Below, piece by piece: positions 22,814 to 24,918 of a stretch of 64,000 nucleotides of DNA. Every line of letters starts with the position of its first letter. Position 1 is the first letter of the stretch. The stretch lies in IMG/VR virus record IMGVR_UViG_2740892439_000009; one strand, written 5' to 3'. Under the pieces are notes generated by a model that searched no databases, was not told the origin of the DNA, and saw only the letters and a program-made list of their open reading frames with translations. This DNA is from a virus. Taxonomy: Duplodnaviria > Heunggongvirae > Uroviricota > Caudoviricetes. Position numbers and translations under genes: made by a program.

Positions 22814-24025
22814 TCAAAAAAGTTTTATAAATTCATAATTCTGGTCAATTAAGGATTCAATACACACCATGCAAAAATCTACATCGTCAAAATCAGGTGT
22901 GTAATATTCATCCTCATAACATTCATTTAGACCTTCAATCAATTTTTCTTTAAAAACTCCCCACGTTTCAATATGAACCATTTCCATATAAGGCGCATGT
23001 GTATGTGCTTGCAATACATCCCAGGTGTCTATAACCTCGATCCGCGGCTTGCAATTAATTTTTTCTAAATATGCCTTCCCAGAATTGTAAATTTTCGACA
23101 TTGATGCCCCAAAACCTGATGGTTGGTAATGAGTGTAAATGTCATAAATTTTTTGTCCTATTCTAGGGAGTTGAGAAGCATTGGATATTTGTGGCGAATG
23201 AAAGTATCGCTCTATGGAAGAAAACGCAGAAACATTAACTAGAGTAATCGTATATGGCGCTAAAGTTCTCTCATTCAAATTTCTACATAAAATAGCAAAC
23301 CCATGGCTATTAGTCTTTTCACCGTCTGAGGACATTTTTGCCATGCTGGCTTTAATAACATTCAATTTCGAATGTAAACGAGAAGTTGAAGTCGGTTTAT
23401 TATACATTTCATCATCATACAAACATATATGAAACCCACCAAGATGACGAAATGAGAACTTGAGTGCTTCTTCCGCAATAACTAATTTATTAATATCTAA
23501 AGGAGTAAGTGATACGTTACCTTGTAAATCATAGCAAGGTTCTAAACATAGAAAGTTTTTCTTCTGCCACACGATCATATTAAAAATAAAGTGTCTAACC
23601 AGGGGTGGCCAGTCAGGTGATATAAGTACATTGGTAATATCTCCATCAGACAAGTATGACAAGTAACTTTTTAGTTCCGCAGCATATGCCACCAACTCAG
23701 TTCCAGCTTCCCTTGTTGGTGTTGAAAAGTTTTTTAACTCAATAAGAACTAAGGATTCATTCTCTGTTGAATAAGCAACAACATCAGGTCTTAATATCTC
23801 AGATTTTGTTGCTGAGATATTCTCATCATCTGTCATTAAATGTAACAATGTTATGTTCTTTAAACAAAACTGATAACTCTCCTTAATTTTTTTCTCTTCG
23901 GGTCTTTTCGGATTAAATTCGTTTAATTTATCAATATTGATGATTGAATTATATAATCCATCTTGATCAGATAATTTGTCAATTATCCAATTTTGCATTT
24001 CCTTTTCGCTTAAAAATATTGACAC
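22814..24025 (-). CDS. Hypothetical protein (403 aa), second gene of an AT-rich two-gene operon; candidate defence or anti-defence
   Basis: Strongly AT-rich; 26-nt gap to the upstream gene on the same strand; no recognisable catalytic motifs. Confidence 0.5.
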   Translation of the reverse strand: MSIFLSEKEMQNWIIDKLSDQDGLYNSIINIDKLNEFNPKRPEEKKIKESYQFCLKNITLLHLMTDDENISATKSEILRPDVVAYSTENESLVLIELKNFSTPTREAGTELVAYAAELKSYLSYLSDGDITNVLISPDWPPLVRHFIFNMIVWQKKNFLCLEPCYDLQGNVSLTPLDINKLVIAEEALKFSFRHLGGFHICLYDDEMYNKPTSTSRLHSKLNVIKASMAKMSSDGEKTNSHGFAILCRNLNERTLAPYTITLVNVSAFSSIERYFHSPQISNASQLPRIGQKIYDIYTHYQPSGFGASMSKIYNSGKAYLEKINCKPRIEVIDTWDVLQAHTHAPYMEMVHIETWGVFKEKLIEGLNECYEDEYYTPDFDDVDFCMVCIESLIDQNYEFIKLF

Positions 24026-24051
24026 TAATTAGGCTCCCGTTAAACCAAAAA

Positions 24052-24918
24052 TTAAAAATCTTGCTTTACTTTATCCATGGTCAGAATTTTGCTAATAATT
24101 GAAGATTCAAATCCATCTAAACCTGAGAGAAAGTTAATTAGCTTTTGGATATGTTGTTCTTTAGGTATAAGTATATATTTTATATCATTGAACTCAAAAT
24201 CAATGCCAAACTTTGAAAATTCTGAGCTAATTTTTGCTTTGTCATCAGAAGTGATAACACGCTCCAAACTCAGACTAGGCCATAAATCACCAATAAAAGG
24301 AGCTGGCACATAACGCCACTCTTTCTCGTCTGCATATATATAATTCTCTATTGTTTTATTATCTTTTCGCTCTAGCTTGCCTCTGTAATTTTTCATATAA
24401 CGCAGTAAATTATATAGATCAGAGTATTCTGCTTTCAATTTCTCAAACTCTATTCTGTTTTTGGTATCTAAATTTCCTCTAGCCTTCCAAAGCGGCACCA
24501 ACTTATTTTTAATAAGTCGAATTCTGGCATTGTATTTAGAAAATATTTCACTACTCTTATTCATATATAGAACTGGGTGTAGACCTTTCTTTTCCGCCCA
24601 AGACTTAGTTAGCCCAAGACCGAATTCTCCATATTTTCCGCTATGATCTCTGATTTGTGATAGTTTTATGTCACAAAACGATACCATTGGTACTGCAAAC
24701 CTCCTACGTCCCCCGACTCCTCTTATTTCCTCGCGAGCAAGAAATGGTTTAAAATATTTCTCAGCCAATATGCTATAGAAAGCATCTTCGTTTTTTGTAA
24801 AATGAAACAACGTGGTTGGATGAAGACTATAAACAGATTCAACATTCGCATCAGGATTTTCAAGGATAGTCATTTTACACCTTGTGGAAAGCCAGTTTAG
24901 TTCTGTAAATAGTATCAC
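24052..24918 (-). CDS. Hypothetical protein (288 aa), first gene of the AT-rich operon; AbiGi-like by size and architecture only
   Basis: Gene pair sizes (288 + 403 aa) recall two-gene abortive-infection loci such as AbiGi/AbiGii; assignment tentative. Confidence 0.45.
   Translation of the reverse strand: MILFTELNWLSTRCKMTILENPDANVESVYSLHPTTLFHFTKNEDAFYSILAEKYFKPFLAREEIRGVGGRRRFAVPMVSFCDIKLSQIRDHSGKYGEFGLGLTKSWAEKKGLHPVLYMNKSSEIFSKYNARIRLIKNKLVPLWKARGNLDTKNRIEFEKLKAEYSDLYNLLRYMKNYRGKLERKDNKTIENYIYADEKEWRYVPAPFIGDLWPSLSLERVITSDDKAKISSEFSKFGIDFEFNDIKYILIPKEQHIQKLINFLSGLDGFESSIISKILTMDKVKQDF

What the first reader, a model, noticed from the sequence alone, without database searches (positions are those of the whole stretch)
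22814..24918. AT-rich minus-strand two-gene operon between the tRNA cluster and the recombinase: candidate defence or anti-defence cargo
Two co-oriented genes (288 aa then 403 aa, 26-nt gap) are markedly more AT-rich than the flanking replication genes and are transcribed against the prevailing plus-strand direction. They sit in a classic cargo position, bracketed by the tRNA cluster with its 16-bp inverted repeat and the tyrosine recombinase with its lox-like site. Size and order recall two-component abortive-infection loci such as AbiGi/AbiGii, but I see no definitive catalytic motif, so this may be an uncharacterised system.
Basis: partly seen in the sequence, partly recalled or inferred. 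Interest (0 to 1): 0.7.

Follow-up and report, generated by a model that had tools for sequence, protein, structure and literature searches.

The report
Orphan AbiGi gene plus novel nuclease
A swappable 2.2-kb cargo cassette on an E. coli phage-plasmid carries a true AbiGi-family gene (predicted ADP-ribosyltransferase fold) and, where AbiGii would normally sit, an unrelated uncharacterised nuclease-like gene that elsewhere stands alone at prophage ends, so it is probably two stacked candidate anti-phage genes rather than a classic AbiG system.

Summary
Two co-oriented minus-strand genes (22814-24025, 403 aa; 24052-24873, 273 aa, not 288) lie 26 nt apart with one terminator, in the most AT-rich 2 kb of the window (GC 0.34 vs about 0.45). 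The window is an SSU5-type E. coli phage-plasmid. The cassette (about 22812-25000) fills a variable slot between the tRNA block and grxA and is present in 19 of 182 complete E. coli genomes sharing the left backbone junction.

Gene 1 is a genuine AbiGi-family member (Pfam 87 bits; 29% identity to lactococcal AbiGI). Its model has a DarT-like ADP-ribosyltransferase fold with conserved H-S-ExE motifs.

Gene 2 is not AbiGii (hhalign probability 0.15%). It belongs to an unannotated family with an N-terminal NucS-like PD-(D/E)xK nuclease domain and invariant D81/E96/K98.

In roughly 80 other loci the nuclease homolog has no AbiGi, and in at least 18 it lies directly after a 186-type prophage integrase. 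The closest AbiGi relatives (58-73%) are also solo. In Klebsiella relatives AbiGi alone fills the slot.

Most likely (0.55) these are two independent single-gene candidate defence modules, stacked and co-transcribed. A new AbiGi-nuclease two-component system (0.25) is not excluded. No function was tested.

The parts
22812..25000 (-). Accessory cassette as a whole. It is one minus-strand transcription unit that replaces other cargo in the slot between the tRNA block and grxA of SSU5-type phage-plasmids.
   Evidence: Homology with relatives carrying other cargo ends at 22811 and resumes at 25001 (L003) or 25152 (L002). The cassette is present in 18 PLSDB plasmids and 19 of 182 complete E. coli genomes sharing the left backbone junction, always with both genes. 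GC is 0.34.
24052..24873 (-). AbiGi-family gene, 273 aa, with a predicted ADP-ribosyltransferase fold. Candidate catalytic residues are H24 (24802-24804), S65 (24679-24681), E183 (24325-24327) and E185 (24319-24321).
24874..25000 (-). 5' untranslated and promoter region of the cassette, with ribosome-binding site AAGGTG at 24878-24883. The promoter was not located.
   Evidence: Sequence read. This stretch travels with AbiGi, since it is 70% identical to the region upstream of the Klebsiella solo AbiGi. The consensus sigma-70 scan found no convincing site here.
24026..24051 (-). 26-nt intergenic spacer with ribosome-binding site GGGAG (24034-24038), 8 nt before the GTG start of the 403-aa gene. 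It contains no terminator.
   Evidence: Sequence read. Folding gives only a weak A/U-rich hairpin of -6.9 kcal/mol, z -1.3.
22814..24025 (-). 403-aa gene of an unannotated family, consisting of an N-terminal PD-(D/E)xK nuclease domain plus an alpha+beta C-terminal region of about 270 aa with unknown function.
   Evidence: The family has 54 clusters in the 5.8-billion-protein search and 450 representatives among 1.84 billion proteins, with no Pfam, PADLOC or NCBIfam family above threshold. The AF2 model has pLDDT 92.1 and pTM 0.87. There is no whole-protein match in the PDB.
23621..23848 (-). Nuclease core, residues about 60-135. Catalytic-type residues are D81 (23783-23785), E96 (23738-23740) and K98 (23732-23734). 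The conserved E7 lies upstream at 24005-24007.
22783..22812 (.). Bidirectional intrinsic terminator (GGGGCCGAAGCCCC stem with T-tracts on both strands), 3 nt after the 403-aa stop codon. It belongs to the conserved backbone.
   Evidence: Folding gives -13.2 kcal/mol on the minus strand and -13.6 kcal/mol on the plus strand. It is conserved in E. coli relatives with other cargo and in Klebsiella relatives, where it follows the AbiGi stop after 27 nt.

Best explanation
The locus is a 2.2-kb accessory cassette in a recombination-exchangeable slot of an SSU5-type phage-plasmid. It is transcribed as one minus-strand unit (inferred from the signals) that ends at a backbone terminator. It encodes two proteins that most likely act independently, each as a single-gene candidate anti-phage module.

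(1) A 273-aa AbiGi-family protein has a DarT-like ADP-ribosyltransferase fold with an intact H-x-T / S-x-x / E-x-E motif set. I infer that it stays inactive until a phage cue appears, and then ADP-ribosylates a nucleic-acid or protein target and blocks phage gene expression or replication. For lactococcal AbiG the published trigger is the phage major tail protein.

(2) A 403-aa protein has an N-terminal NucS/EndoMS-like PD-(D/E)xK nuclease domain with all catalytic-type residues invariant, followed by an alpha+beta region of about 270 aa. I infer that this region is a sensor or DNA-recognition module, so the protein would work like Shedu or a Type IV restriction enzyme and cut invading DNA.

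Shown here: gene structure, family membership of gene 1, folds and conserved motifs, cargo status, and lack of conserved pairing. Inferred: enzymatic activities, defence function, independence of the two genes, and co-transcription.
For: Cargo status. The junctions lie at 22811 and 25001-25152, with different content in relatives. The cassette is present in only 19 of 182 E. coli genomes that share the backbone junction. GC is 0.34 and GC3 0.28 against about 0.50 for the backbone.

One transcription unit. There is a 26-nt spacer with a ribosome-binding site and no terminator, then a single strong terminator after gene 2.

AbiGi identity and ART fold. PF10899 is already listed as an ART-like family related to DarT and DUF2971 in PMC12522546, and DUF2971 is the only recurrent secondary Pfam hit, in 4 of 41 members.

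Nuclease fold and invariant motif.

Independence. About 80 non-identical loci carry a 403-aa homolog (19 genome, 13 viral, 45 metagenome and 6 looked-up loci, with some overlap). None has an AbiGi by HMM. At least 18 of these lie directly after a 186/P2-type integrase in the cI-int operon at the prophage end. The closest AbiGi relatives are solo: 73% and 71%, 70.7% on IncF plasmids next to Avs4, 64% alone in the same slot of Klebsiella phage-plasmids, 58% at a lambdoid prophage end, and most viral loci. The E. coli and Klebsiella versions differ by exactly one gene plus the spacer, inserted between the AbiGi stop and the shared terminator.

Defence-like contexts. Neighbours include Avs4, caspase-like and NB-ARC/STAND genes, and a TIR-like gene. 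Lactococcal AbiG is an experimentally validated anti-phage system (PMC13064643, PMC12184496).
Against: No function was tested, so defence is inferred from homology, fold and context only.

The experimentally validated AbiG needs to be understood as a two-gene system. I could not find evidence that an AbiGi alone protects.

In all three Firmicute loci examined, AbiGi is tightly coupled to a partner of about 400 aa. An AbiGi followed by a 403-aa gene could therefore reflect replacement of the partner rather than stacking.

The two genes are never separated in the 19 E. coli genomes. They share a promoter region, a terminator and identical GC3.

An HNH-AbiGi fusion protein exists (P0093), which shows that AbiGi domains can work with nucleases.

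The promoter was not located.
Confidence: 0.55

Rival explanations
1. The two genes form a new two-component defence system in which the PD-(D/E)xK nuclease has replaced AbiGii as the partner of AbiGi. AbiGi would sense infection or mark the target by ADP-ribosylation, and the nuclease would execute (or the roles could be reversed).
For: The layout matches canonical AbiG, with AbiGi first and a protein of about 400 aa second. The spacer is 26 nt with its own ribosome-binding site, and no terminator lies between the genes. The genes are always together in this lineage. GC3 is identical. An HNH(PtuB-like)-AbiGi fusion exists in P0093. There is precedent for Shedu-type nucleases acquiring partner proteins (KELShedu, PMC12577705).
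Against: The pairing is confined to one near-clonal lineage at 96.7-100% identity. About 80 other nuclease-homolog loci have no AbiGi. The nearest AbiGi relatives (58-73%) and the nearest nuclease relatives (49-52%) are all solo. The Klebsiella slot holds AbiGi alone, with the same terminator. Equal AT-richness is also seen in the solo homologs, so it does not show a common origin.
Confidence: 0.25
2. The cassette is not anti-phage defence. It serves the phage-plasmid itself, as anti-defence or host take-over (an ADP-ribosyltransferase modifying host factors, as the T4 Alt/Mod enzymes do), as a weapon against competing plasmids, or as an addiction (toxin-antitoxin-like) module.
For: Phage-encoded ARTs that modify host proteins are well established (background knowledge). 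Databases label AbiGi an antitoxin. The cassette sits on a mobile element that must itself overcome host defences. A neighbouring slot in relatives carries a YafO-family toxin.
Against: Neither protein has any homolog in 50,697 deposited phage genomes, which is unexpected for a lytic-cycle take-over function. Nuclease homologs sit in the cI-int lysogeny operon of 186-like prophages. AbiGi relatives lie beside Avs4 and other defence genes on plasmids and chromosomes. The only experimental data for the family are anti-phage. Lactococcal AbiGi and AbiGii were not toxic in E. coli, so the toxin-antitoxin label lacks support (PMC3985639).
Confidence: 0.12
3. It is a canonical AbiGi/AbiGii abortive-infection system in which AbiGii has diverged beyond recognition.
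For: Gene order and sizes match (273 + 403 aa here, against 279-293 + 397-405 aa). The first gene is a genuine AbiGi.
Against: True AbiGii proteins that share only 21-25% identity with each other still score 153-524 bits on PF16873. In contrast, none of 35 members of the 403-aa family gives any hit. The profile-profile comparison gives probability 0.15%. AbiGii has no PD...ExK motif. The 403-aa family has its own independent distribution as a solo gene.
Confidence: 0.03

Closest known systems
AbiG (AbiGi/AbiGii) abortive-infection system of Lactococcus plasmid pCI750 and its Firmicute relatives
   Same: The upstream gene is a true AbiGi homolog, with PF10899 at 87 bits, the PADLOC AbiGi model matched full-length, and 29% identity to lactococcal AbiGI with the PMxxFCD and ExEWRY motifs conserved. 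The layout is bicistronic, with a second protein of about 400 aa. The locus sits on a mobile element.
   Different: The second gene is unrelated to AbiGii. The gap is 26 nt instead of 1-3 nt. The NCBIfam AbiGI equivalog cutoff is not reached, at 52 against 300 bits. Proteobacterial relatives of this AbiGi are normally solo. Rule-based tools that need both genes would presumably not call it, and a DefenseFinder survey of SSU5-group elements lists no AbiG.
DarT (DarTG) ssDNA ADP-ribosyltransferase and the related DUF2971 / Tpt1 ART families
   Different: There is no sequence-level match to DarT. No DarG-like macrodomain antitoxin is present in the cassette, since the 403-aa protein gave no Pfam family above threshold. 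AbiGi has a long two-helix insertion (residues about 109-157). Activity and target are unknown. Lactococcal AbiGi was not toxic in E. coli, unlike DarT.
Shedu (SduA, DUF4263) single-protein immune nuclease
KELShedu (KELA + KELB) two-component Shedu system of E. coli
   Same: It is an E. coli bicistronic operon in which a PD-(D/E)xK immune nuclease works with a small upstream partner. This provides a precedent for the rival two-component reading.
   Different: KELA is a 110-aa DNA-binding protein and KELB is a 361-aa protein with DUF4263 at residues 146-313, with a 3-bp spacer. Neither resembles the proteins here.
Solitary Type IV / PD-(D/E)xK restriction endonucleases (for example McrC, N.BspD6I, FokI cleavage domains)
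   Same: They share the fold and catalytic motif. There is no cognate methyltransferase in the cassette. The nuclease is joined to an appended recognition-type domain.

Membership tests
AbiG two-gene system (AbiGi + AbiGii) | AbiGi-family protein (Pfam PF10899 / PADLOC AbiGi model) | tested here: met
   PF10899 gives 87 bits against a gathering score of 22.4. PADLOC AbiGi gives E 5.5e-47 over 251 of 260 profile positions. BLASTP against lactococcal AbiGI gives E 2e-18.
AbiG two-gene system (AbiGi + AbiGii) | AbiGii-family protein (Pfam PF16873 / PADLOC AbiGii) encoded immediately downstream | tested here: not met
   There is no PF16873 hit at E up to 10 for the protein, and none at E up to 1 for 35 relatives. 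PADLOC gives no hit. hhalign against three true AbiGii proteins gives probability 0.15%, while those three score 153-524 bits on PF16873.
AbiG two-gene system (AbiGi + AbiGii) | Orthology to lactococcal AbiGI (NCBIfam NF042957 equivalog, cutoff 300 bits) | tested here: not met
   The score is 52.4 bits against a cutoff of 300. The protein is a family member, not an equivalog.
AbiG two-gene system (AbiGi + AbiGii) | [quoted passage not shown] | not testable with these tools
   This is known only for the lactococcal system (PMC12184496).
ADP-ribosyltransferase superfamily (DarT-like) | ART fold | tested here: met
ADP-ribosyltransferase superfamily (DarT-like) | Catalytic motif triad [R/H]x[D/T] - [S/Y]xx - [Q/E]x[Q/E/D] | tested here: met
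   H24-F-T26, S65-F-C67 and E183-K-E185 are present. H24, E183 and E185 are invariant, and T26 and S65 are at least 90% conserved in 41 homologs. The motif definition comes from PMC12522546. ExE is conserved in lactococcal AbiGI. The assignment of residues to motifs is by sequence and secondary structure, not by superposition.
ADP-ribosyltransferase superfamily (DarT-like) | NAD+-dependent ADP-ribosylation activity | not testable with these tools
   A biochemical assay is needed.
DarTG toxin-antitoxin | Macrodomain (DarG) antitoxin partner | tested here: not met
   Pfam finds no family above threshold in the 403-aa protein, and there is no other gene in the cassette.
PD-(D/E)xK nuclease superfamily | Restriction-endonuclease-like fold with the D...(D/E)xK motif | tested here: met
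Shedu (SduA) | DUF4263 nuclease domain recognised by the Pfam or PADLOC models | tested here: not met
   There is no DUF4263 hit at E up to 10, even for the isolated N-terminal domain. None appears in 35 relatives. PADLOC gives no hit. The PDB profile search is empty at E up to 1. The UniRef name 'DUF4263 domain-containing' was not reproduced.
Shedu (SduA) | C-terminal nuclease preceded by a variable N-terminal sensor domain (or nuclease only) | tested here: not met
   The nuclease core is at residues about 60-135 and is followed by about 270 further residues. The definition comes from PMC10441436.
Shedu (SduA) | NucS/EndoMS-like elaboration of the nuclease fold | tested here: inconclusive
Shedu (SduA) | Single-gene anti-phage activity; homotetramer | not testable with these tools
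   The solo genomic occurrence is consistent with this, but function and oligomeric state are untested.
KELShedu | KELA (about 110 aa dsDNA binder) plus KELB (DUF4263 nuclease) | tested here: not met
   The sizes and domains differ.

The most novel reading that the evidence does not exclude
AbiGi and the 403-aa nuclease form a previously undescribed two-component immune system in which an ADP-ribosyltransferase-fold protein is coupled to a PD-(D/E)xK nuclease. For example, AbiGi might ADP-ribosylate phage DNA or a phage protein and so license the nuclease, or the nuclease's C-terminal domain might read the modification. The nuclease would then be a non-orthologous replacement of AbiGii, which would also give a first mechanistic handle on the AbiG family, unexplained since 1996. 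Independently of this, the 403-aa family (with its 700-750-aa long form) may be a new single-gene defence family that marks the position after the integrase in 186-like prophages as a cargo hotspot.
Probability: 0.25. Interest if true: 0.75.

Novelty: new variant of a known kind. Interest (0 to 1): 0.52.

Why it matters
AbiG was described in 1996 and its mechanism is still unknown. A 2026 review found no informative fold for either protein. In this enterobacterial AbiGi the ADP-ribosyltransferase fold and motif set are clear. Proteobacterial AbiGi genes also normally occur without AbiGii. This argues against the database label 'antitoxin' and suggests that AbiGi is itself an effector enzyme, which can be tested directly with NAD+ assays and ExE mutants.

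The 403-aa protein defines an unannotated family of nuclease-fold proteins. They occupy classic lysogeny-expressed cargo positions, after the integrase of 186-like prophages and in a phage-plasmid hotspot. This makes the family a concrete candidate for a new single-gene defence, and it gives no hit in the PADLOC-DB v2 models.

For annotation, the locus shows how an orphan AbiGi plus a look-alike neighbour of the right size can be mistaken for an AbiG system. It also shows that SSU5-type phage-plasmids, which are common in clinical E. coli, carry more candidate immunity cargo than the published DefenseFinder survey reports.

Tried and rejected
(1) AbiGii identity of the 403-aa protein was rejected.

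(3) KELShedu identity was rejected on sizes and domains.

(4) Conserved pairing was tested with phmmer and with a purpose-built AbiGi HMM on genome, viral and metagenome loci. It was found only in the near-identical E. coli element.

(5) Transposon-like insertion: no inverted repeats lie at the cassette junctions. Exchange by homologous recombination between conserved flanks is assumed, not shown.

(6) Remnant of the 403-aa gene in Klebsiella relatives, to decide insertion against deletion: none was found, so the direction is unresolved.

(7) Promoter: the consensus scan found no convincing sigma-70 site upstream of AbiGi and fewer sites overall than in shuffles, so it is unresolved. The scan also missed the terminator because of greedy stem extension, and folding confirmed the terminator.

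(8) Deposited phage genomes have no homolog of either protein, so no annotation could be borrowed.

(9) The AlphaFold-database fold library was unavailable.

(10) The C-terminal extension of the 700-750-aa long-form relatives has no Pfam or PADLOC match.

(11) The O'Connor 1999 paper on AbiG genetics is not held. I therefore could not establish whether AbiGi alone confers any resistance in Lactococcus.

(12) Literature searches for the RefSeq accessions returned nothing.
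Full report
**What is there.** The window is an SSU5/pHCM2-type E. coli phage-plasmid. A 6-kb query around the finding is 99.6% identical to about 112-kb circular plasmids such as pEcFELIX526.1 (NZ_CP101923), and is flanked by backbone genes shared with hundreds of Escherichia, Klebsiella and Salmonella elements.

The two minus-strand ORFs exist as described. The downstream one runs 22814-24025 (403 aa, GTG start). The upstream one is better read from the ATG at 24873 (273 aa) than from the GTG at 24918 (288 aa). 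The ATG has an AAGGTG ribosome-binding site, it is the RefSeq start, and close homologs are 273 aa.

The 26-nt spacer carries GGGAG 8 nt before the GTG and has no terminator. A strong bidirectional hairpin (-13.2 and -13.6 kcal/mol) with T-tracts on both strands starts 3 nt after the 403-aa stop codon.

GC is 0.34, the lowest in the 64-kb window. GC3 is 0.28 for both genes, against about 0.50 for the ligase, grxA and integrase genes.

**Cargo status.** Against E. coli relatives that carry something else, homology stops at 22811 and resumes at 25001 or 25152. Those relatives hold a Gp49-family gene (L002), an unrelated 429-aa minus-strand gene with no Pfam or PADLOC match (L003), or an IS. So the slot between the tRNA block and grxA is variable, and the terminator belongs to the backbone.

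The cassette is in 18 PLSDB plasmids and in 19 of the 182 complete E. coli genomes whose plasmid shares the left backbone junction. It is never chromosomal, and both genes are always present.

No repeats bracket the cassette.

**Gene 1 is a real AbiGi, and AbiGi is an ADP-ribosyltransferase-fold protein.**
- Pfam PF10899 scores 87 bits against a cutoff of 22.4. The PADLOC AbiGi model matches over its full length at 5.5e-47.
- BLASTP against the abiGI product of a Lactococcus lactis plasmid gives 29% identity over 242 residues, E 2e-18, with PMVSFCD/PMTCFCD and ADEKEWRY/HDEHEWRY aligned.
- The protein is not an equivalog of the lactococcal protein, scoring 52 against the NCBIfam cutoff of 300 bits.
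- An AlphaFold2 model built on 41 homologs is confident, with pLDDT 90.9 and pTM 0.85.
- The ART motif triad is present as H24-F-T, S65-F-C and E183-K-E185. H24, E183 and E185 are invariant, and S65 is at least 90% conserved.

This fold assignment is not new. A 2025 survey lists PF10899 among known ART-like families, close to DarT and DUF2971 (PMC12522546). DUF2971 is also the only recurrent secondary Pfam hit in my set.

The assignment does conflict with the widespread label 'antitoxin'. That label has no experimental basis, because neither lactococcal AbiGi nor AbiGii was toxic in E. coli (PMC3985639). It also goes beyond a 2026 review, which found no informative fold for AbiGi or AbiGii and gives the mechanism as unknown, with the phage major tail protein as trigger (PMC13064643, PMC12184496).

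**Gene 2 is not AbiGii. It is a nuclease-fold protein of an unannotated family.** No Pfam, PADLOC or NCBIfam family reaches threshold. True AbiGii proteins from Lactococcus, Bacillus and Enterococcus share only 21-25% identity with each other, yet they score 153-524 bits on PF16873. In contrast, none of 35 members of the 403-aa family gives any hit. A profile-profile comparison of the two families gives probability 0.15%.

The family is rare. It has 54 clusters in the 5.8-billion-protein search, all named 'hypothetical'. It has 450 representatives at E up to 1e-3 among 1.84 billion proteins.

An alignment of 35 members at 32-52% identity has invariant E7, P80-D81 and E96-x-K98, which is the classical PD-(D/E)xK signature, plus further invariant positions.

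Nothing in the PDB matches the whole protein, by sequence or by fold. The C-terminal 270 residues resemble only generic ferredoxin-like alpha+beta domains.

One source (UniRef) names the exact protein 'DUF4263 domain-containing', which would make it a Shedu nuclease. I could not reproduce that at any threshold. No SduA structure appears in the listed fold-search hits. The domain order is also the reverse of Shedu's, which has the sensor first and the nuclease at the C-terminus (PMC10441436).

The resemblance is real at a coarser level. The reported closest structural relative of the Shedu nuclease is EndoMS/NucS, which is also my top hit. Shedu is therefore the closest functional analogy, but the protein does not test as a member of that family.

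**Are the two genes a system?** This is the central question, and comparative genomics argues against it.

I collected loci encoding homologs of the 403-aa protein from 185,579 species genomes (19 loci), viral contigs (13 non-identical), metagenomes (45 non-identical) and direct look-ups (6). I scanned every ORF with an AbiGi HMM built from 115 family members. AbiGi was found only in the copies that are about 99% identical to the window.

In at least 18 of these loci the homolog lies immediately after a 186/P2-type integrase, in the cI-int lysogeny operon at the prophage end. Its GC there is about 10 points below its flanks.

Conversely, the nearest relatives of this AbiGi are solo:
- 73% identity, on a plasmid-like contig.
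- 71% identity, beside caspase-like and NB-ARC/STAND genes.
- 70.7% identity, on about 30 E. coli plasmids; on the one inspected (IncF plasmid pEQ011) it sits next to Avs4.
- 58% identity, at a lambdoid prophage end.
- Most viral-contig homologs.

Most tellingly, Klebsiella SSU5-type phage-plasmids carry a 64%-identical AbiGi alone in the same slot. There the AbiGi stop codon is followed after 27 nt by the same terminator that follows the 403-aa stop codon in the window. The two versions therefore differ by exactly the 403-aa gene plus its spacer, and no remnant is left behind.

The Firmicute AbiGi loci I inspected (Lactococcus, Bacillus and Enterococcus) have AbiGii 1-3 nt downstream.

The shared AT-richness does not show a common origin, because the solo homologs are equally AT-rich.

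**Points that keep the two-component reading alive.**
- The layout mimics canonical AbiG.
- The genes share one transcription unit and are never separated in this lineage.
- A PtuB-like HNH-AbiGi fusion protein exists (P0093).
- Shedu-type nucleases can acquire small partners (KELShedu).

I therefore put stacked independent modules at 0.55, a new AbiGi-nuclease pair at 0.25, a non-defence role at 0.12 and a cryptic AbiGii at 0.03.

**Defence or not.** No phenotype was tested, so the case is circumstantial. It rests on:
- homology of gene 1 to an experimentally validated anti-phage system;
- enzyme folds typical of immune effectors, with intact catalytic motifs;
- lysogeny-operon and hotspot positions;
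- neighbours such as Avs4, STAND/NB-ARC, caspase-like and TIR-like genes;
- low GC;
- absence of both families from 50,697 deposited phage genomes, which argues against a lytic-cycle take-over role.

A DefenseFinder survey of 1,377 SSU5-group elements reports no AbiG (10.1101/2025.09.12.675607). That is what would be expected if the AbiG rule requires both genes.

**Verdict.** It is cargo in a hotspot. The first gene is AbiGi. The second gene is not AbiGii, and both proteins have recognisable catalytic motifs. The locus is a new variant of known kinds: an orphan, ART-fold AbiGi joined to a member of an undescribed nuclease-fold family that is a good candidate for a new single-gene defence. Interest is moderate. 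The locus is not categorically new, but it offers direct, cheap experiments on the long-unexplained AbiG family and on a candidate new prophage-borne immune nuclease.

Noticed in passing
window 25490-25522: A 33-bp near-perfect palindrome (16-nt arms, 1-nt centre) lies between grxA and the tyrosine recombinase gene. It lies in the backbone, not at the cassette junction.
   Followed up: partly
window 22639-22716: A 20-nt inverted repeat (95% complementary, 38-nt loop) lies immediately 3' of tRNA-Ser in the conserved backbone. Its function is unknown.
   Followed up: no
window 22157-22549 vs L004: The tRNA block itself differs between relatives. L004 lacks most of the stretch holding tRNA-Tyr and tRNA-Thr and the 22326-22549 spacer, so the tRNA content of these phage-plasmids is also variable.
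   Followed up: no
window 25389-25488; L004 4667-5695: There is a second variable slot between grxA and the integrase. Some relatives that carry the same AbiGi-nuclease cassette also have a 202-aa gene plus a YafO-family toxin inserted there.
   Followed up: no
L001 177-1439 (NZ_CP101923): The closest plasmid relative has an ISEcp1 transposase upstream of the small-ORF block. This insertion sequence commonly mobilises blaCTX-M genes. It is not present in the window at this position.
   Followed up: no
proteins P0220-P0318; L071 1651-3828: Many proteins of 700-750 aa (including a Burkholderia cluster) match almost the whole 403-aa profile at their N-terminus. They carry an extra C-terminal region of about 350 aa with no Pfam or PADLOC match. 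This is a second, larger architecture of the same undescribed family.
   Followed up: partly
protein P0093 (411 aa): This is a fusion of an N-terminal PtuB-like HNH nuclease domain with a C-terminal AbiGi domain. It shows that AbiGi domains can be covalently coupled to a nuclease.
   Followed up: partly
L024 2976-3908; L069 1082-2968: The cI-int operon of 186-like prophages holds additional cargo between cI and int in some genomes: a 310-aa protein with weak TIR similarity, or a trio of 369-aa, DUF4325 and 154-aa genes. This suggests the operon is a multi-slot cargo hotspot.
   Followed up: no
L073 3501-7819 (pEQ011, NC_023315): A 70.7%-identical solo AbiGi sits near psiB and a ParB-family gene on IncF conjugative plasmid pEQ011, convergent with an Avs4 gene. 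About 30 E. coli plasmids carry this AbiGi variant.
   Followed up: partly
window 22814-24025 (protein name in UniRef): UniRef names the exact protein 'DUF4263 domain-containing protein'. However, the 2025 Pfam copy gives no DUF4263 hit at E up to 10 and PADLOC gives no SduA hit, so this is either an outdated or a borderline automatic annotation.
   Followed up: yes
window 24948-25166: A 72-aa plus-strand ORF overlaps the grxA start and spans the right-hand cassette junction. It is not annotated in the RefSeq relatives inspected. It may be spurious, or the region may hold the divergent promoters.
   Followed up: no
L003 2346-3635 (NZ_CP041426): Alternative cargo in the same slot and orientation is a 429-aa protein with no Pfam or PADLOC match, unrelated to the 403-aa family by HMM. 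It is another uncharacterised candidate.
   Followed up: partly
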